DNA of 64,000 bases, taken from NCBI GenBank assembly GCA_051294375.1, contig CM119270.1, positions 19,864,049 to 19,928,048 of the forward strand. The letters run 5' to 3'. The translations under genes were made by a program, and so were the position numbers. Positions 4,225-46,877 of this stretch are shown in pieces (positions within the stretch are counted from its first letter, which is position 1; each line of letters begins with the position of its first letter). Origin of the DNA: Paraspadella gotoi (lineage: Eukaryota > Animalia > Chaetognatha). The notes beneath the pieces are model-generated. The model was not told the DNA's origin, did not search any database, and saw only the letters and a list, made by a program, of their open reading frames with translations.

Positions 4225-26422
<22,198 letters not shown>

Positions 26423-29440: not shown

Positions 29441-32400
29441 ATGGAGGAAGCCAACCAAGAAGAAATCGAACTGCAATCAACCGGAAACCAAGCGCATCCA
29501 CGGTCACAGCAATCGTTTCCGAGAAATTGCGAAAATGGATGTCATCGTCTCGCGCCTGCGCCGTCGCCGACATCGTCGCGCCCTCTGCTTTCATCTTCGG
29601 CGTCGGCTTCGTCTCATTCTTCGTCATCGTCGCCTCCGACGTCTTCGTCAGTAGTTCCGCCGCAGGAGCTGGAGGAGGAACAGCAGGATCCGCATCCGGA
29701 GCAGCCAATACTTTCGCCTCAACCTTCCCCGCCGCTCCGAGCTGCGCCGTCGCCGCTGCCCGCGCCCGCTCGTCGACCCGATATCGACGCCATACGCGTC
29801 TGCCTCACGTGGGGAATCTTGTTGCATCACGCGGTTTTGATTTACGTTCCGCGGAAATCCTTTCTCGAAGATCCCTTCACTGAATATGAGGGGCGGCAGG
29901 TGAGAAAGTGGGGGGGATAGGAAATTATGGTGGGTAGGAAATTATGGGGGTAGGAAATTATGTGGTGGTAGGAAATTATGGGGGTAAGAAATTATAGGGG
30001 GTAGAAAATTATGGAGGGTAGGGAATTATGGGGGGTAGGAAATTATGGGGGTAGGAAATTATGGGGGTAGAAAATTATGAGGAAGGGAATTATGGGGGTA
30101 TGAAATTATGGGGGTAGGTATTGTAAGGGGTTAAGAATTGTTAGGTTTTGTAATTGTAGTGGGTAGAAATTGTAGTGGGTAGGATTTGTAGTTGGTAGGA
30201 AATGCAGTTGGTAGGAATTGTCGCTGTTAGATTTTAAAACCGTTGCTGATTATTCTAATAGTTTTGACCGCATAGAAGTAATAATTCTGGTACTAAAACT
30301 AATAAGCATAGTTGTATGGAGGAGTAGCGAGAACCTTTCAACCTTTCAAAAAAATCCGACGGAAGGCTCTCTCTCTATCACTCTCTATAATATATCTATA
30401 TATTATATATATTTATATATAATATATTTATATATATATCATCCTGCAATCGGACAGAAGGAAACCAATACTGTAACCTTGACGACCCTCTTTGAAATAT
30501 ACTATCTCTTACTTTCAGTATAAATCTTAAAAGTAGACCTTAGAAGTGGACTCCTCGAAACGACAAGGTCTTACGAATTCATCGAACATCGATACCCTAC
30601 GATAAAGTTAAACTAAGGTAAGCTTCGCTTCTTTAATCCAATGGACGAATCGTCTGATTTCAGCTTCGTCGTCAACAAACAAAGTTAAGAAACCCCGCTA
30701 CAAATTTAGTTTAGCGTTTTCTTCAAAATTAGCCATTCATTTTTTTTTTTTTTTTTTTTGTTACTTTTTTTTTGTTTGAAGTGAAGATGAAGATATCTTG
30801 TCTCTTATTTTTAGTCGGGATTTTCGTCGTCTGTTCTGGTGAGTTGTCTTTTAAGCTTAATTTTATATTAGCCGAATAGGTTTAAGGGGGTTTAGGATTT
30901 GGGTTTGCTTAAGGTTAATCGTAATTAAGGTTAATATTATAATCATTAAGTATTAAGTTTTATTATTTTTTTTCGTCAAATATAAAATTTTACATTTTTT
31001 TTGGTTGTTTCTGATTTAGGGATGCCAAAGATGAAATCTTCTATAAATCCGGATATGAGGGAAAATACTGAGGTAGTTTATTATTGGAAAGGCCGACCGA
31101 CTGAGAAGACTGACCGACCGAAATGACCAATGGAGAGAGCTTTCAAAAATTGTTATAAATTATTTTTTTTTTTTAGGATGGAAATGATTTTAAAAATGAT
31201 GATGTCACAGAAATGGAAATGAATGAGGTAAAATGAAATTGAAAATTAATAAATGTATGAATGAATGAATATTATTATGTAAACCAAAGTCAAAACCTGT
31301 CATCTGGGAATTTAAATATTCCTCTTAATTAGGAAGTCCAAGAAGAGATAGAGAACGGATTCTACAGAGAAGTAAGTTAAACATAATAATATACTTTGTA
31401 TCATTTAAAACCATTTAAATATATAAAAATTGATAAAAAAAGTGTTATTTCAAATTCATTGCGTATATTATTTTTTTGGTTTTCCAGCTGGAAAAGGAAG
31501 AAAAAAACAAAAGACAAGAAGATGGTAAGATTTTTCATTTTTGATTTTAGCCTCGACCGCCCCTTAACCAATTACCCGACCTGATCTCTTTTTCAGAGTT
31601 CATTCGTCCTCCTAAATTTATAGGCAATAGGCAGTTGAACGAGGACGATCACGATCTCGATCACGATCACGATCACGATCACGATGGTAAACTCTTGTCT
31701 GATGAAAATATCGAAGCGATATAGGAGCGAACGTGAGCGATTACCTTTTGAGACATTGTCGAAATAGAACGCGTAAATAAAATGTCAAGAATCTTTGAAA
31801 TTGTGAAATAGAGAAGTTGTACAAGTGTACTATAGAGATAATATAGAGACTCGATATGAAACACTTGTTTTAGTCTTAGATGTTATTTTTACCGGTCGAT
31901 TAGACTAAAAAACTTGTATGGAAATGAATCGGACTTTAGCAAGCAATTATTTCATCAAATAATTTAAATTAACAACGAAGTAAGTAGGCGTTAATAAACA
32001 ATGTATAAGAAAGTATGTTATAAGGAAAAAGTGTCAATTTTGATGCAGCAACGAGTTTATTTATTTATAAACGGACTTGTTTCGGTTCGATTTACGAACC
32101 TTCTTCAGCGCAATTAGAGATACAATACAATGACAGTCCTTATATCCCAAACGCAACGAAAAAGAAAGGAAACTATCACAAAGAAAGTATGTTATACTAA
32201 TAGCCCAAAATGTGACTATCAATTAAGACAGACGTTTTCAATGAGAACGAAAAAGAGCAGGACACTTCTCAGAGATTTTTTTTTCCCTTTTTTCACTTTT
32301 TTTTATCTCGCCAGACGGGCTTAAGCCCGACTTGGGCGAGATGGAGGATTGTTTCTGTTTCTTTATGACCTTTATTATCGTCACAATTTTTTACCATTAG

Positions 32401-35400
32401 AAATTGTAAAAGCGTATAACCATAGGAAGCTAAAATTTTAGATATAGCTTCTAATCAATAAGATCGTTTATATTCACATGTTTATATTATTACAAGCATT
32501 TGTTTGTTTTATTTATAAAACAATTTTTATATATATAAACGAATTTAGCTTTACAGGGTTTGTTCAGCGGCGGTCCAGCTTCTTTCTCTCTTTTAATTAT
32601 AAGTCTTTTTTTGTCGCTGCCTTTTCAGTTATTTTTTTTTTTTATTTCTCTCTTATTCATAAACGTATTTGTTTTATTTACGATGAATGATTATCATCCT
32701 ATCGTATCAATATTTAATTATTATAGTATCAATATTTAGTTATCATTGCATCAATAATTAGTTATCATTATCTTATGGATGGAATAAGTTTTAGAGTAAG
32801 AATGTATTTATTCTTTAACAAATTAATAACGATAACAGGCTTAAAAAATAATTGTGTTGTGGTTGTTTATTCACCGCATTAATAATTAATTATTATTCCA
32901 TTAATAATTAATTAATGTTATAATAATAATCAATTATTATTACATCAATCAATTATTATTATATCCATCAATTACTAATATATTAATTAATTACTATTAT
33001 ATCAATCAATTGTTATTAAATTAATAAATCTTTTTTTTCCGGATTTTTTCAGTAATTTTCTTTGATAATAACGTCTGGCGAGATCACTATCTTTTAAGAT
33101 TTTTTTTGGTATTTCATCTCTGTAATTTTATTTCTTTTTGACCTTTCCTTATTCCTCATCAGCTCAATGATTAATTTTCATTTTATTTTGATTATTTTAA
33201 TCCTTTTTTTCATTCCTCTTTTTCGTCATCTCTCGCCCATCCCCCCTTTCTTCCTCTCCCATCCCACCTCCCATCCCCCCCTCACTCCTCCCCTCCCATC
33301 CGTCAGCCAGCTCTCGTCTTCTATTATTTCATGGAATCCTGGAACATGCCGATGTTCTTTTTTCTCTCCGGAATCAACGCTTTCTCCTCGATGACTAAAC
33401 GGACCAGTCAGGCCTTTTGCCTGGAACGATATCACCGCCTGTTAGTCCCTGCCCTAGTCATCATGGCCTTCACTCAGTTCCCTTTCTCGTTGACCTTTTT
33501 CGCCAGGCTGTCCAAGGCCTGCCAGGAGCACCGGGACGGACGTAACTCCAACGAGACCTGCTACATGTGGGACATTCCTGGGGTTAATCAGTCCTTCATA
33601 GATTATGTGGGAAAGAATTGGGGAAGACCGCCGGAGACGCCGAACGCGCGACAGGGATGGTTCCTCGTGTATCTCTTCTTTTTCTCGCAGGTGGGTAGGT
33701 AAGGTGGGTAAGGGTTAAGTTGGGTAAAGTGGGTAAGGTGGGTAAGGTGGGCCAGGTGGGCCAGTGCTGTAGGGCTGGATCAATTCACCGATTTAGTTTC
33801 GGTTGGTCTGCGGCTGAATTCATGTTTGATTTATGTCACTTATTTAGGAATGTAAACAATTTCAAAAGCGCAGTATAAATTCTCAAATTTACACTCGGCG
33901 AAAATATATTCCACTCCAGCTTCTAGCCTATCCCTTCTATCTCTGGCACCCCTCCTCCGCGGGAGACGTCGAAAGCTGCTGCTACTTCGATACTTCACAC
34001 CGGCGCTGCTGTGCTGGGTTGCACCGCCTCTGTTGCACCGGCTGGCTGCGCCGCTTCTCTCGCCCCTTCGGACGCGCGACGCCGACCCCTCTGACCTTCG
34101 CCGGCGTCGCATTCTGGTTTCTCGGAAGCGGCGTCAAATTGGCGTTGGTTCCCGGCAGCTTTCTCGCCGTCGTTGAGGTGATTTAAAAAAACAGTACAGA
34201 TGAGTGAGATTTTGTGACTTTTAGTGATAACTCGTGGTTTTTTTAATCTAACAAAAAAATTATATTACATTCGATTCTGGTAATTAGAATATTACATGAA
34301 GAAGTAATCAATTTTAACCTAAACGGTACTTTCATAAAAAAAAGAGGGGAAAAAAAAGAAAATTTTTCTATGAATTTTTAGTTAATATTTTTTCCGTTAT
34401 CCACCCTCCCCGAGATTAATTTTTCTCTCGAGGTTAATTTAAATCGTCTTACATATTTCAAATTTTCAATTTGCTTATTACGTAAAATTAGCGCCTTTTC
34501 GTCTAATTATGTGGATTTCTCTTTCTCTTCCCCTATCTCCATATCCTTCTCCTATCTCTCCTTACCCCTCCCCTACTCCCCCGGCCCAACCCATCCTTCA
34601 AGATCTCCCTCCGCAAATTCTTTCCCAACGGACTCTTCAACTTTTTCTCCTTCGCCGTCGACATCGCCAACGACTTCAACTTCTGCTTCGTCTACTTGGT
34701 CGGATTCGCGATCGCTTTGCTCGACGATCGAATTGCGCCGATCCTCCGCCGCTGCGCCTGGCCCTACTTGGCCGTAGGCACCGTCGTCTGTCTCACCTAC
34801 GGCTGTTTCGCGCCCTTCAGGCACGTCTTGGTGCCGGGCATCGTCGGGGAGACGCTCGTTAGAGGGCTGCTGAGGGGATTCGGAGAATGGAGCATCGTGT
34901 TGGGCCTCGTGGGAATGACGAGGAAGTGAGGAAGGGGTTGTGGTAGGGGGGGGGTTAAGGACGGGAATAGGTGTGATTAGGTGTGATATATGAAATATAT
35001 ATGGTTACTCTCATTAGTTATTTCATTGTGTTATATATTGAAGATATTGACATTAATCTTTATGAACATGAGTCATCCAAAGGTCAGAAATACTCCCAAT
35101 TTAAAAATAATAATGATTGACGATTTATGGCCGTTTTTCACGAAGATTTTCAACATTCCCGCTTGACAGATACATCACCACCTACCCGCCATTCCTTGAC
35201 ACCCTCACCAAAGCCTCGATGCCCTTCTACCTCATCCACCTCCAAGTACTCGTCCTCATCGGCGTCTTCACCCTTCAAGTCCCCGTCCTCCGCTACTTCC
35301 CCTTCCTCCTCCTCTTCTCCACCCTCGTATCCGGCCTTCTCGCCCTCTTCCTCTCGCGGTCCGGATCGCTCGGCTACTTCTTCGGGGTGCGCCCGCCACG

Positions 35401-35548
35401 GAACGCTTGGCTGCCGGGCAAGGGATGGCTCGAGTTTGGGCCTGGCTTCTTTCTGGCCGGCGTTTTAATCGTGGAAACGTCCGTGGCGACCGCTTTTAAT
35501 TGGAACTATTCGAAAGAGAATTACAACGAACCACCGAAATTGCTGTAG
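29441..35548 (+). CDS. Acyltransferase-3 family multi-pass membrane protein, OpgC/MdoC (glucans biosynthesis protein C)-like; 5 exons, ~600 aa
   Basis: Exons 29441-29899, 33307-33690, 33920-34177, 34603-34925 and 35170-35548 all have GT-AG borders and join in frame. AT3 motifs: RRPDIDAIRV..LLHH, WNMPMFFFLSG, ERYHRLLVP, GWFLVYLF, ASMPFYLIH. Confidence 0.85.
29913..30217 (+). repeat. G-rich minisatellite, ~16-bp unit (GGAAATTATGGGGGTA)n, at the 5' end of acyltransferase intron 1
   Basis: Tandem units are directly visible immediately after the donor at 29900. Confidence 0.9.
30519..30524 (+). promoter_or_regulatory. Candidate TATA box of the nested gene
   Basis: TATAAA lies upstream of a probable non-coding exon ending at a strong donor aag|gtaagc (30617/30618). 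A long poly-T acceptor ends at 30781, 6 nt before ATG 30787. Confidence 0.5.
30787..31724 (+). CDS. Nested micro-exon gene encoding a 119-aa secreted prepropeptide (novel peptide precursor)
   Basis: Coding exons 30787-30838, 31020-31072, 31177-31227, 31333-31371, 31488-31524 and 31597-31724; all GT-AG with phases 1,0,0,0,1 matching. Translation: MKISCLLFLVGIFVVCSG-MPKMKSSINPDMRENTEDGNDFKNDDVTEMEMNEEVQEEIENGFYRELEKEEKNKR-QEDEFIRPPKFIGNRQLNEDDHDLDHDHDHDHDGKLLSDENIEAI*. AATAAA at 31776-31781. Confidence 0.85.
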
Positions 35549-36997
35549 TAATTCAATAGTTATAAACGTAAGTTTTAAGGATGGAATATTAAATGAAGTT
35601 AAAAGGGATTTTTAAAATATTGAACTGAAATGAAATGTTTTGTAACTTTGTGAAATCCGTTTACCACCCACAATTCTAATACGAAAGTACTCAACCGTTT
35701 TTGATTTTTGTAGCGAGTCAAAAACCCGACCATAATTGATTTGCAAATGAGATTAAGAAAACATTGACCAAGAAAATTGTTCAGTTTATTTTTGTCGGGT
35801 TTTATCTTTGACAATTGTGTTGCTGTTGATAGAAGGCAGTTTTTAGCCGTTTTTCAGCATTTTAAAATCTTGAATATTTTCAACATTTCGAAAATGTTCT
35901 CACTGTGAGTCACAGTCTGACTATCCATTTTCACTTTAATTTTATCTTGAATTTTGAGTTAAAATATTAAAATTAGCGAAAGCTGTAACTTTCAAGTTTC
36001 AACAATATTTTTTTAGTTCAACATTATAGTCTTACTTTTTAATTATGATTTAAAATTAAATCAATATTAAATATTGTCCCTAGCAACGAGGTCTTTTGTT
36101 CCCTGACGATGACGCGGATGAGTCGAGGCGACATCGAAAACAAAGTAGTTCCATTGACTCATCATTTCGAAATAACTCGCGTTTTTAAGTAATGTATATG
36201 TATTTGAAATAGCTATGACAATATTTGTTCGAAAAATTAGTTATTAATTCGATTTTTAATTTATTTTGAATCCGATTTTCTTTACCATTGGCCATCCTGG
36301 ACGATATTTTCACAAAGAAAAGAAGAGAAATAAAATTAAGAGGTCGATGATCAAGAAAGAAAAAAGAAAGAAAAAAAGAAAAAAACCTGCTGACTCGCTG
36401 CAGCTCGCTATTCTCGACAATAATTAAAAAAAAGCAGAAATACTGGTTTCATAATCCATTTCTCGTTTTTCGTATCCTATTTCGGGCGATATATAATGTC
36501 CTACATTCAAAATTAAATCCACTGACTCGGTTTTTCCTTTGTTTTTAATGGAAGTTCCTCTAGTATAGTTCGGTATTATATCCAAGAATGTTCTGTTGTA
36601 AGTAATTAGACTTTATGTAAACGTGGCATTTGAATAACATATTATTTGTAATTTGAATACAATCAGATATCACGATTCGCGAGTCTTTGGATCTAACAGC
36701 TACTTCAATCCGAGTGTCTCTGTTGTTGACGAGGCGACTTAATTTATTCGCTTGAATGCTTCTACTTTAAAGTCATTGTGTAGTCAATTTGGATTTAATT
36801 TTGTTTTCGTTACTTTTTTATCAGAAGTGACTCGTGAAAAGGTGATAAACAAACGATATCTTAACACTAACCCACCTTTAAAAAAAAGACTTTTTCAAGA
36901 CTCGGTTTCGAAGCGTCTTCCCGTTCCAGGGCCAAGGCCTCGTCCGCCCAAACGAAGCCCAAACTTTTATTTAAAAAAAAAAGAAAAAAAAAGAAAA

Positions 36998-44583: not shown

Positions 44584-46877
44584 ACATGGTGAGGCGATTC
44601 GTCGGTCGAGGCCAATTCCATCACCAGATTCTCAAATCAAAGGGAGACGACGACGATGATGACTGACGTCTTATACACGTGACCGAATGATGGCCCTTTG
44701 ATGTCGCCGATGTTGACGGTGCCATCGGTGTCGTCGTCGTCTTCCTCGTCGTCGTCGTCGTCCTCATTATCAAATGAATCTACTTTGTTCGAGACGAGAT
44801 TTTCCATTGAATTTTCTTGATGAAAAAAAGTTTTTTTTCAAAAAATTAAAATTCGAATTCGAGCAGAAGACTTATCGGTTAAGTGACCATATTTTGTACA
44901 TATAAAAAATAATAAATAATAAATTGTATTATAAAATAAAAATTGAATTATTTTGCATAATTTATCATAATTCGATGTTCTGTCATGATANNNNNNNNNN
45001 NNNNNNNNNNNNNNNTAAGTGGAATGCCCGACAAGATTGGGGGGTGGGGGACCAGACGGAACCGACAAACGTGAATTATAGAGCCGGAATCTGCTGTGAA
45101 GTAAGATTGCCGGATAAAAATAATTTTTTATAATTTCTTAATATTTTTATATAGTGTCTGAATTTTAAAGTTATAAGTTGAGCGCGCGTTTTTTTTTTTT
45201 GGGCACAGGGGAGTGTATAAAGAACTGTATATTCTAATTAAACTAATTGATTGCGGCTGCTCACATAGCTGGATCACTCCTGGCTGCTGAGCTTCGAGAA
45301 GCCCCTACTAAAAATATGAAAAAAATACGTTTGAAAGTTCATTTGGGGGAAAAAAGGTCCAATAGGCTTGAAGGCACCTCGTTGCTCTTTTTGAATTGAT
45401 ATCTCTGGGCTCTCATTATTAAGGCTTTTATTGCCAGCTCTACTAGGTCTAGCACTCCACATATTGGTTCTACTTTTATCAAATTCTTTTAAAATATGTT
45501 TAATAATTTTTAATCTTTTATTGTTTTTTTATTGTTTTATTTGTCTCTCTCTCTCTCTTCTCTTACTTTATATAAAATATATATATATAAATATTGGTCC
45601 TATATTCGTGTTATGCCTATGAGCAGATGAGGCTAGAGAAGTCGAAATGTATAACATCAGATACTAATCGCGATATCATGATATTTGATGAGTTTTTTCC
45701 GTTCATAATTAAATTATGAATATGGTTAGAGCATAAATGTAGCAGACTTAAAAACCACCTTTTGTATCAAACTGTTGATTTAATGTCGCCTTAAGGAGTG
45801 TCTGTACATTGCAACGGCACATAGAACTTTAATAATCTCTCTTTTCAAATCCAAATCTCTCTCTCCTCTCTCTCTCATCTAATCTCTCATCTAGTCTCTC
45901 TCCTCTCTCTCTCTCTCCTCTCCTCTCGTCTCTCTCTCTCTTTCTCATTTTAGGTAATTTTAAACGAGGCTCAGTTCACCGAACTCTCCGCACACTTTTT
46001 TATCACCTGACACTTCTGCGCCCGAAACGGCAGACGACGTCTTTTGCCAGGATGGAACGATTTTCCTAACAAGCGGAAATTGCCCTACCTAATAATATAG
46101 ACGACGGACGGGACATACGGACGGAAGATGGATAGGTGGATCGACGGGGACAAACTATGGGAGGTGACCGAATCTGCAATCTGCAATCTGTAATCTGCAA
46201 TGACCAGATCAAATGATTTCGACTCAATCTTAACTTCTTTATTATTTTAATTAATTTCATATCGTTTTACACTATATTTGTGAAATTTATGAAATGGGAT
46301 AATACAATATTTAATTTTTTTATAATTTTTTTTTACATGTTGAAACATTTTCTGCCATCACATTTAAAATATTANNNNNNNNNNNNNNNNNNNNNNNNNN
46401 NNNNNNNNNNNNNNNNNNNNNNNNNNNNNNNNNNNNNNNNNNNNNNNNNNNNNNNNNNNNNNNNNNNNNNNNNNNNNNNNNNNNNNNNNNNNNNNNNNNN
46501 NNNNNNNNNNNNNNNNNNNNNNNNNNNNNNNNNNNNNNNNNNNNNNNNNNNNNNNNNNNNNNNNNNNNNNNNNNNNNNNNNNNNNNAAGGTTAATAAGAA
46601 AATGAAGAAAAAGGAGAGGACGAGGAAGGAAAAGAAAAAAGAAAAGATGTTATTTCATTGCAGTACGTGGCGGGTGCCGAAAATATACGGAAATACATTG
46701 GCGCAACACAACATTTTAATTTCGGTTTTTATGCGGAAGAAGAAGTAGAAAATAAACAAAGAAGTAGAAGAGTTAAAGAAGAAACAGAATTAAATGATAA
46801 AATACAAAAATACGTTCGTTGATAAGGCGCTAAGTGGGCTGAAGATTTTGGAATTACAAATCTCTAATTGATAAAAA

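What the first reader, a model, noticed from the sequence alone, without database searches (positions are those of the whole stretch)
29441..35548. Bacterial-type (OpgC/MdoC-like) acyltransferase-3 with spliceosomal introns: candidate domesticated horizontal transfer
Seen: an intact 5-exon ORF of ~600 aa with host-like GC3 and intron signals, flanked by clearly animal genes (bark, LAPTM4). Established knowledge: typical animal AT3 proteins are NRF-6/OACYL type with an N-terminal Cys-rich NRF domain. The motif set here (RRxDID.RV..L.H, W.MP.FF..SG, ER..RLL.P, WFL.YL, AS.PFY.IH) and the lack of an NRF domain match my recollection of bacterial osmoregulated-glucan succinyltransferase-like proteins. 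Inference: an old bacterial acquisition that gained introns and a Pro/Ser-rich N-terminal extension.
Basis: partly seen in the sequence, partly recalled or inferred. Interest (0 to 1): 0.75.

Follow-up and report, generated by a model that had tools for sequence, protein, structure and literature searches.

The report
Overlooked animal membrane acyltransferase family
This is a real, spliced gene for a predicted membrane acyltransferase; it belongs to a little-noticed family shared with a comb jelly and many unnamed intron-bearing organisms, so it was likely inherited from an old ancestor that may have had it from a prokaryote, rather than picked up from a bacterium by this animal.

Summary
The gene is real: five exons, 600 aa, all four GT-AG joints in one transcript contig, host-like GC3, gap-free link to LAPTM4 and roadblock genes. 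It is a stand-alone acyltransferase-3 (AT3) with every catalytic motif intact and no NRF domain. The transfer story needs correcting. Its closest relatives are about 500-aa proteins at 28-41% identity, including one from the ctenophore Mnemiopsis; the best prokaryote-type hits reach 24-26%. These proteins form one side of a long branch (SH-aLRT 100) and share additions that prokaryote-type rows lack: a Cys-rich cytosolic loop, a Cys pair in a luminal loop, an extra C-terminal helix. One subgroup appears to share the window's intron 2. The family's nearest outsiders are uncharacterised prokaryote-type AT3s (one is an Asgard archaeon), not E. coli OpgC/MdoC (16 bits against 117-136), so 'succinyltransferase' does not carry over. 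Verdict: an old, patchily sampled eukaryotic AT3 subfamily that I did not find described, probably of prokaryotic origin, with the donor unresolved; not a transfer into this lineage. It likely passes an acyl group from cytosolic acyl-CoA to a luminal hydroxyl acceptor, most likely a glycan. Intron 1 also holds a nested, strongly covered six-exon gene for a small acidic peptide.

The parts
29441..29899 (+). Exon 1 (aa 1-153): Pro/Ser-rich tail and first membrane helix
29441..29770 (+). Low-complexity N-terminal tail (aa 1-110), predicted cytosolic; no Pfam domain, so no NRF domain
   Evidence: shorter tails in relatives
29786..29830 (+). DxxR-x10-H motif (D116, R119, H130)
   Evidence: motif defined in PMC12423673
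29900..33306 (+). Intron 1, 3407 nt, GT..AG, phase 0; holds a nested same-strand gene
30787..31724 (+). Nested six-exon gene for a 119-aa acidic peptide with a hydrophobic N-terminus (separate gene, not part of the acyltransferase)
   Evidence: five GT..AG joints in an X1 contig of depth 6401; reading frame
33307..33690 (+). Exon 2 (aa 154-281): FxxxxG (33355-33372), RxxR (33427-33438), luminal loop with C225/C238 and two N-x-S/T sequons (33496-33657)
33691..33919 (+). Intron 2, 229 nt, phase 0 after Q281; same site at which 24 fragments of the P0003 subgroup break off
33920..34177 (+). Exon 3 (aa 282-367): Cys-rich loop with 6 Cys (33944-34099), family-specific insert
34178..34602 (+). Intron 3, 425 nt, phase 0
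34603..34925 (+). Exon 4 (aa 368-475): membrane helices with invariant G401
34926..35169 (+). Intron 4, 244 nt, phase 2
35170..35548 (+). Exon 5 coding part (aa 475-600): SxxxYxxH (35216-35239) and an extra C-terminal helix (about 35429-35497)
35549..36692 (+). 3' untranslated part covered by the same transcript contig (a contig end is not a transcript end)

Best explanation
This is a spliced host gene for a stand-alone acyltransferase-3 protein, predicted to pass an acyl group from cytosolic acyl-CoA across an ER or Golgi membrane to a hydroxyl acceptor, most likely a glycan, and likely inherited within an old eukaryotic subfamily whose ultimate origin is probably prokaryotic. Shown: gene structure, splicing, family membership, intact motifs, family-specific inserts. 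Inferred from known AT3/HGSNAT enzymes: a ten-helix core forms a channel; D116/R119, R194/R197 and S491/Y495 hold CoA from the cytosolic side; H130 further along helix 1 helps move the acyl group to the acceptor on the far side. Inferred from that topology: the loop after helix 3 is luminal and carries a disulfide (C225-C238) and N-glycans; the Cys-rich loop after helix 4 is cytosolic and could be S-acylated; an eleventh helix puts the C-terminus in the lumen. My odds, given activity: glycan or glycolipid acceptor 0.55, lipid or small molecule 0.3, other 0.15; acetyl is more likely than succinyl. Origin: one entry from the uncharacterised prokaryotic AT3 group into an early animal or pre-animal ancestor, then inheritance with many losses and several expansions.
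For: Splicing. Relatives: full-length hits at 28-41% identity over 420-580 aligned residues against 24-26% for the best prokaryote-type hits; 83 representatives at E up to 1e-30 among 1.84 billion. Named member: Mnemiopsis leidyi KAL5252436.1, 29.5% over 549 aa, E 5e-55. Trees: 25 family rows are one side of a branch 2.46 long, SH-aLRT 100; the same split holds. Shared additions, 33 family against 35 prokaryote-type rows: loop after helix 4 median 44 aa with 4.4 Cys against 7 aa with none; C-terminal part 37 against 14 aa; 17 of 28 full-length relatives have the luminal Cys pair and all 17 a sequon beside it. Introns elsewhere in the family: L011 has GT..AG introns that join to an open frame; 24 of 118 usable fragments break at the site of the window's intron 2. 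Prokaryotic affinity: family plus 16 (SH-aLRT 99) or 12 prokaryote-type rows group apart from other bacterial AT3s; none of the 11 non-family hits over 430 aa in the best 150 has an NRF domain. Fold: the model of the nearest relative P0086 (pLDDT 86.4) matches 8jkv (Z 12.5), HGSNAT (Z 12.0, rmsd 5.1, 293 aligned) and GWT1 (Z 9.0); rank 4 is 4.7. Motifs as defined in PMC12423673 are all present.
Against: Only 1 of 26 family clusters looked up holds a member with an organism name, so 'widespread in animals' is not shown; some members may be protists, and the host's own phylum was not determined. The shared intron is read from truncated proteins, not from DNA, is one of four, and CAG is a favoured splice site; the other break clusters and the introns of L011 do not match the window. 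The prokaryote-type rows were chosen for scoring well on the family profile, most are unnamed, and no NRF-type, AT3-SGNH or fungal AT3 was in any tree. The AU test does not reject an Asgard sister group (p 0.080) or E. coli OpgC as sister (p 0.081); it only narrowly rejects the window standing outside the rest of the family (p 0.038). Sequons also occur in that loop in 13 of 35 prokaryote-type rows. The folded protein is P0086, not the window's. No acceptor or donor evidence exists; neighbours of three bacterial relatives give no common pathway.
Confidence: 0.62

Rival explanations
1. One prokaryote-to-eukaryote entry, then movement of the gene between marine eukaryotes (for example prey to predator), which would explain its presence in a ctenophore and plankton sequences and its rarity among named proteomes.
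For: 25 of 26 family clusters looked up have no member with an organism name, and the sources of the family hits are nearly all environmental or read-assembly collections. Intron positions mostly differ between subgroups.
Against: Subgroups are only 28-41% identical with long inner branches, as expected of old splits; one intron site appears shared; no relative in 2.9 million viral contigs (44 pattern matches, none confirmed). Rarity among named proteomes may reflect sampling and 50-90% clustering that hides members.
Confidence: 0.15
2. The family is a eukaryotic inheritance from the archaeal ancestor (or from the last common ancestor of eukaryotes) and was never transferred.
For: The best-scoring non-family protein of the profile search (P0223, E 6e-39) is from a Promethearchaeota archaeon; the AU test does not reject it as sister (p 0.080).
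Against: No tree joins P0223 to the family; P0226 scores alike (134 against 136 bits) and better against the window; P0223 has a 40% identical relative on a cyanobacterial plasmid, so this group moves among prokaryotes; it would need very many losses across eukaryotes.
Confidence: 0.1
3. One reading: a bacterial OpgC/MdoC-type gene entered this animal's own lineage and gained introns and a tail there.
For: No NRF domain; MdoC is the top NCBIfam model for exon 2 and is hit by 54 of 68 aligned proteins at E up to 0.01; three of four introns have no match among inferred family sites; separate entries from one unsampled donor group cannot be excluded by trees alone.
Against: Alien index about -80 against the ctenophore protein; shared Cys-rich insert, luminal Cys pair and extra helix; nested place in the family; E. 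coli OpgC 16 bits; no full-length close relative in one genome each of 185,579 prokaryote species (6 weak loci from 119 pattern matches; a pattern scan that can miss).
Confidence: 0.07
4. The family is a derived offshoot of the ordinary animal NRF-6/OACYL or AT3-SGNH proteins that lost the extra domain, and its prokaryotic likeness is convergence or long-branch pull.
For: These animal proteins were absent from my trees, and the family stem is long.
Against: Such proteins are in the searched library in principle, yet none of the 11 longer non-family hits in the best 150 carries an NRF or SGNH domain, while prokaryote-type proteins score 110-150 bits.
Confidence: 0.06

Closest known systems
Acyltransferase-3 family (Pfam PF01757), TmAT superfamily
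   Same: Pfam hit, DxxR-x10-H, FxxxxG, RxxR, SxxxY, helix-6 Gly; predicted fold like HGSNAT and GWT1.
   Different: About 500-600 aa instead of 370-400; Cys-rich cytosolic insert, luminal Cys pair with sequons, extra C-terminal helix; weak Pfam scores (21-60 bits for full-length relatives).
E. coli OpgC/MdoC, glucan succinyltransferase (NCBIfam NF003014)
   Same: Stand-alone AT3; best NCBIfam model.
   Different: 16-26 bits against a cut-off of 338; direct BLAST 25% over 110 aa, E 0.004; placed outside the family-plus-prokaryote clade. No periplasm or such glucans in animals (general knowledge).
Uncharacterised prokaryote-type stand-alone AT3 group (P0223 Promethearchaeota, P0226, P0239, P0151)
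   Same: Nearest outsiders: 117-136 bits on the family profile, 24-26% to the window, same core motifs.
   Different: 380-410 aa, none of the inserts, no known function; some are fused to AMP-binding, beta-lactamase-like, ABC or DUF2147 domains.
Animal NRF-6/OACYL/Drop dead and C. elegans AT3-SGNH (OAC) proteins
   Same: AT3 domain in animals; S-Y-H motif present (S491, Y495, H498).
   Different: No NRF or SGNH domain; not among the nearest hits examined.

Membership tests
Acyltransferase-3 (PF01757) | Pfam match at or above the curated cut-off | tested here: met
   Exon 2 alone 31.4 against 31 bits; nearest relatives P0086 37.9 and P0085 47.8.
Acyltransferase-3 (PF01757) | DxxR-x10-H in helix 1 | tested here: met
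   D116, R119, H130; motif from PMC12423673, passages read.
Acyltransferase-3 (PF01757) | FxxxxG (helix 2), RxxR (helix 3), SxxxY (helix 9) | tested here: met
   F170-G175, R194-R197, S491-Y495.
Acyltransferase-3 (PF01757) | Ten-helix TmAT fold | tested here: met
   Met for the nearest relative P0086 (40.5% identical): pLDDT 86.4; HGSNAT Z 12.0, rmsd 5.1, 293 aligned; GWT1 Z 9.0; next unrelated 4.7. The window's own protein was not folded.
Acyltransferase-3 (PF01757) | Acyl-CoA-dependent transfer across a membrane | not testable with these tools
   Needs an enzyme assay.
OpgC/MdoC (NF003014) | Score at or above 338 bits | tested here: not met
   Exon 2 19.3; five full-length relatives 15.7-26.4, one no hit. 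The spliced window protein was not scanned whole.
OpgC/MdoC (NF003014) | Groups with E. coli OpgC | tested here: inconclusive
   Free tree puts OpgC outside a branch of SH-aLRT 98, but the AU test does not reject it as sister (p 0.081).
NRF-6/OACYL | N-terminal NRF domain | tested here: not met
   No Pfam hit in exon 1; in-frame stop before the ATG inside the transcript contig.
AT3-SGNH | C-terminal SGNH domain | tested here: not met
   Protein ends about 20 aa after the last helix; no Pfam hit in exon 5.
Lineage-specific horizontal transfer from bacteria | Best non-self hits are prokaryotic (positive alien index) | tested here: not met
   About -80 against the ctenophore protein, -184 against the best family member.
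Lineage-specific horizontal transfer from bacteria | Integrated in host DNA, spliced, expressed | tested here: met
Ancient transfer at the base of the family | Family nested inside a named prokaryotic clade with support | tested here: inconclusive
   Groups with prokaryote-type rows (SH-aLRT 98-99) but the fork is open, rows are mostly unnamed and preselected, and other eukaryotic AT3s were missing.

The most novel reading that the evidence does not exclude
A third kind of animal AT3 enzyme, taken once from prokaryotes and refitted for the secretory pathway, has since been passed between marine animal phyla (ctenophores, planktonic animals, this host), marking an unrecognised acylation of surface or mucus glycans that model animals lack.
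Probability: 0.13. Interest if true: 0.8.

Novelty: new variant of a known kind. Interest (0 to 1): 0.42.

Why it matters
Characterised animal AT3 proteins carry an NRF or SGNH domain, and their targets are mostly unknown. A stand-alone subfamily with its own inserts, present in a ctenophore and in many plankton-derived sequences, points to an acylation step in marine invertebrates that has not been studied, and offers a test case of whether such patchy genes are old inheritances or transfers. It also warns that 'looks bacterial' calls can come from missing reference animals. One subgroup that includes the ctenophore protein has lost the helix-1 Arg reported essential in OafB, OacB and HGSNAT, a natural variant for mechanism studies. 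As a claim of transfer into this one animal, it does not stand.

Tried and rejected
Whole-genome checks (copy number, paralogues, NRF-type genes of the host): no genome is held. Runs X2 and X3 of other organisms gave only short low-identity pieces; no holder is on record as RNA. PDB sequence search with the family profile: nothing real. Viral contigs: no relative. Prokaryote genomes: 6 weak loci; metagenome contigs: 18 loci, of which L007-L009 and L011 are family members. The protein atlas did not complete and the Foldseek PDB search was never accepted, so taxa of most members stay unknown. Earlier findings of the scan: nothing in five look-ups. In the 123-row tree P0251 was labelled prokaryotic by my length rule but is a family fragment; it was left out of later trees. 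In the intron analysis 23 of 141 fragments were dropped for low identity or no matching run. In one search, 2 of 30 loci gave no usable frame and one more no score. Neighbours of three bacterial relatives showed no shared pathway. I suspected a trans-splicing host from acceptor-like sites before start codons and read passages of PMC12460157; nothing could be tested, so no phylum is claimed. PMC7738191 mentions an AT3 expansion in a mite without linking it to transfer (passages). PMC6005172 lists nine confirmed transfers in Mnemiopsis, none an acyltransferase (passages with Table 3; the one supplementary file held has no 'acyl', 'glucan', 'mdoC' or 'opgC'; its other supplements were not seen and list 37 candidates). 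No description of this subfamily turned up in searches (listings only, open-licence library), which is not proof of absence.

Full report
Observation. The five exons join to a 600-aa frame with four GT..AG introns. A single 2976-nt contig of run X1 lacks all four introns and differs from the window at a few letters; X1 is guessed to be RNA and is one study, but joints at GT..AG make RNA the plain reading. GC3 (0.71) matches neighbouring exons (0.60-0.87). The gene lies in a gap-free 23.8 kb with a LAPTM4-like gene and a roadblock exon, so contamination or a chimeric join is unlikely.

Family. Exon 2 hits Acyl_transf_3. Searches with exon 2, then a full-length hit, then an alignment and a profile scan of 1.84 billion representatives (83 at E up to 1e-30, 1305 up to 1e-10) gave two tiers: proteins of about 500 aa, colinear with the window at 28-41% identity, best P0086 and P0085, and proteins of about 390 aa at 21-28%. 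Of 26 upper-tier clusters looked up, one holds a member with an organism name, Mnemiopsis leidyi KAL5252436.1; its gene model is fused to a metalloprotease but the AT3 part aligns over 549 aa. The other members are eukaryote-like: L011 is genomic DNA with GT..AG introns that join to an open family frame, and many short proteins from contigs break off at fixed sites. Of the lower tier, P0223 is from a Promethearchaeota archaeon, P0149 is named glucan biosynthesis protein C by its source, and most are unnamed; I call them prokaryote-type.

Phylogeny. The upper tier with the window is one side of a long branch in all four trees (SH-like or SH-aLRT 100). The window joins P0085 and P0086 with support 90-96 in three trees and is in an open fork beside them in the fourth. 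With other bacterial AT3s as outgroup, the family and the prokaryote-type tier group together (99, 98) and E. coli OpgC falls outside. On the family profile four prokaryote-type proteins score 117-136 bits, E. coli OpgC 16, and 27 frames from AT3 loci of five bacterial genomes -20 to 39. Limits: that tier was picked by this profile; NRF-type, AT3-SGNH and fungal proteins were not available; AU tests reject neither an Asgard sister (p 0.080) nor OpgC as sister (p 0.081), and only narrowly reject the window outside the rest of the family (p 0.038). The donor is unresolved. The alien index is about -80 against the ctenophore protein.

Shared derived features. Against 35 prokaryote-type rows, 33 family rows have a longer Cys-rich loop after helix 4 (median 44 aa, 4.4 Cys, against 7 aa, none) and a longer C-terminal part (37 against 14 aa). 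17 of 28 full-length relatives, and the window, have two Cys and at least one sequon in the loop after helix 3; sequons are 35 in 1333 residues there against 32 in 11320 elsewhere in the core, though 13 of 35 prokaryote-type rows also show one in that loop. 24 of 118 fragments, all closest to P0003/P0004, break after the conserved SQ and read V next, the same site and phase as intron 2; in an overlapping count, 15 of 23 continue with N, I, K or R, as GTAA/GTGA donors would give. This is inferred without DNA. By my rough count (about eight family sites, four introns, 1350 possible positions) a chance match is 2-3%, several times more given splice-site preference. Together these make a separate bacterial entry into this lineage unlikely.

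Mechanism. PMC12423673 (passages) defines DxxR-x10-H, FxxxxG, RxxR, a helix-6 Gly and SxxxY as the acyl-CoA channel of this superfamily; all are present. The model of P0086 has pLDDT 86.4 and its best matches are 8jkv, HGSNAT and GWT1 at Z 12.5, 12.0 and 9.0, with rank 4 at 4.7 (such Z values in helical bundles are not proof alone). I infer that cytosolic acyl-CoA enters the channel and the acyl group is handed to a luminal hydroxyl, most likely on a glycan, as in the bacterial enzymes reviewed in PMC9558356 (passages); a lipid or small-molecule acceptor is the main alternative, as C. elegans oac mutants affect volatile pheromones (10.1101/2025.08.10.669515, passages). Succinyl transfer cannot be carried over from MdoC. 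The subgroup with the ctenophore protein has I or M in place of the helix-1 Arg in 11 of 25 rows that cover it and mostly lacks the luminal Cys pair; the window keeps both.

Novelty and verdict. A known fold and family, but a stand-alone eukaryotic subfamily that eight paper searches did not show described (listings, open-licence library only), and not among the nine confirmed Mnemiopsis transfers of PMC6005172 (most supplements not seen). What remains open is how wide the family is and why it is rare among named proteomes. Interest 0.42.

Noticed in passing
window 30787-31724 (+), inside intron 1; exons 30787-30838, 31020-31072, 31177-31227, 31333-31371, 31488-31524, 31597-31724: Nested same-strand gene with five GT..AG introns and 37-53 nt inner exons; 119-aa product with a hydrophobic N-terminus, 33 Asp/Glu, a Lys-Arg pair and an Asp-His repeat, like a secreted peptide precursor. 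Contig depth 6401 against 74 for the host gene; GC3 0.41; last exon has no Pfam hit.
   Followed up: partly
window 46875-47983 (+): Intronless, AT-rich XK-related reading frame in two overlapping frames (shift near 47423-47462); GC3 0.28-0.32, far from the 0.6-0.87 of other exons, between N gaps. Possible retrocopy, pseudogene or misjoined piece.
   Followed up: partly
window 36670-36957: The acyltransferase transcript contig ends at 36692 and overlaps a deeper contig that runs towards the LAPTM4 start, so RNA cover is continuous between the two same-strand genes. Contigs cannot show one transcript.
   Followed up: no
proteins P0012, P0017-P0019, P0022, P0045, P0080-P0084, P0184: A subgroup that includes the Mnemiopsis cluster has many divergent copies, I or M for the helix-1 Arg, and (except P0012) no luminal Cys pair.
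   Followed up: partly
protein P0223: Best-scoring non-family protein is from a Promethearchaeota archaeon and has a 40% identical relative on a Calothrix plasmid.
   Followed up: yes
window 19191-19596 and 18722-19102 (-): One exon of the upstream SRCR gene appears twice, either side of a 10-N gap at 19146-19155; a long stretch at 63702-63983 also repeats 63070-63240 region text. Likely assembly duplications.
   Followed up: no
window 55067-55285 (-): APCDD1-like exon (PF14921, E 9e-21), a further sign of an animal host.
   Followed up: no
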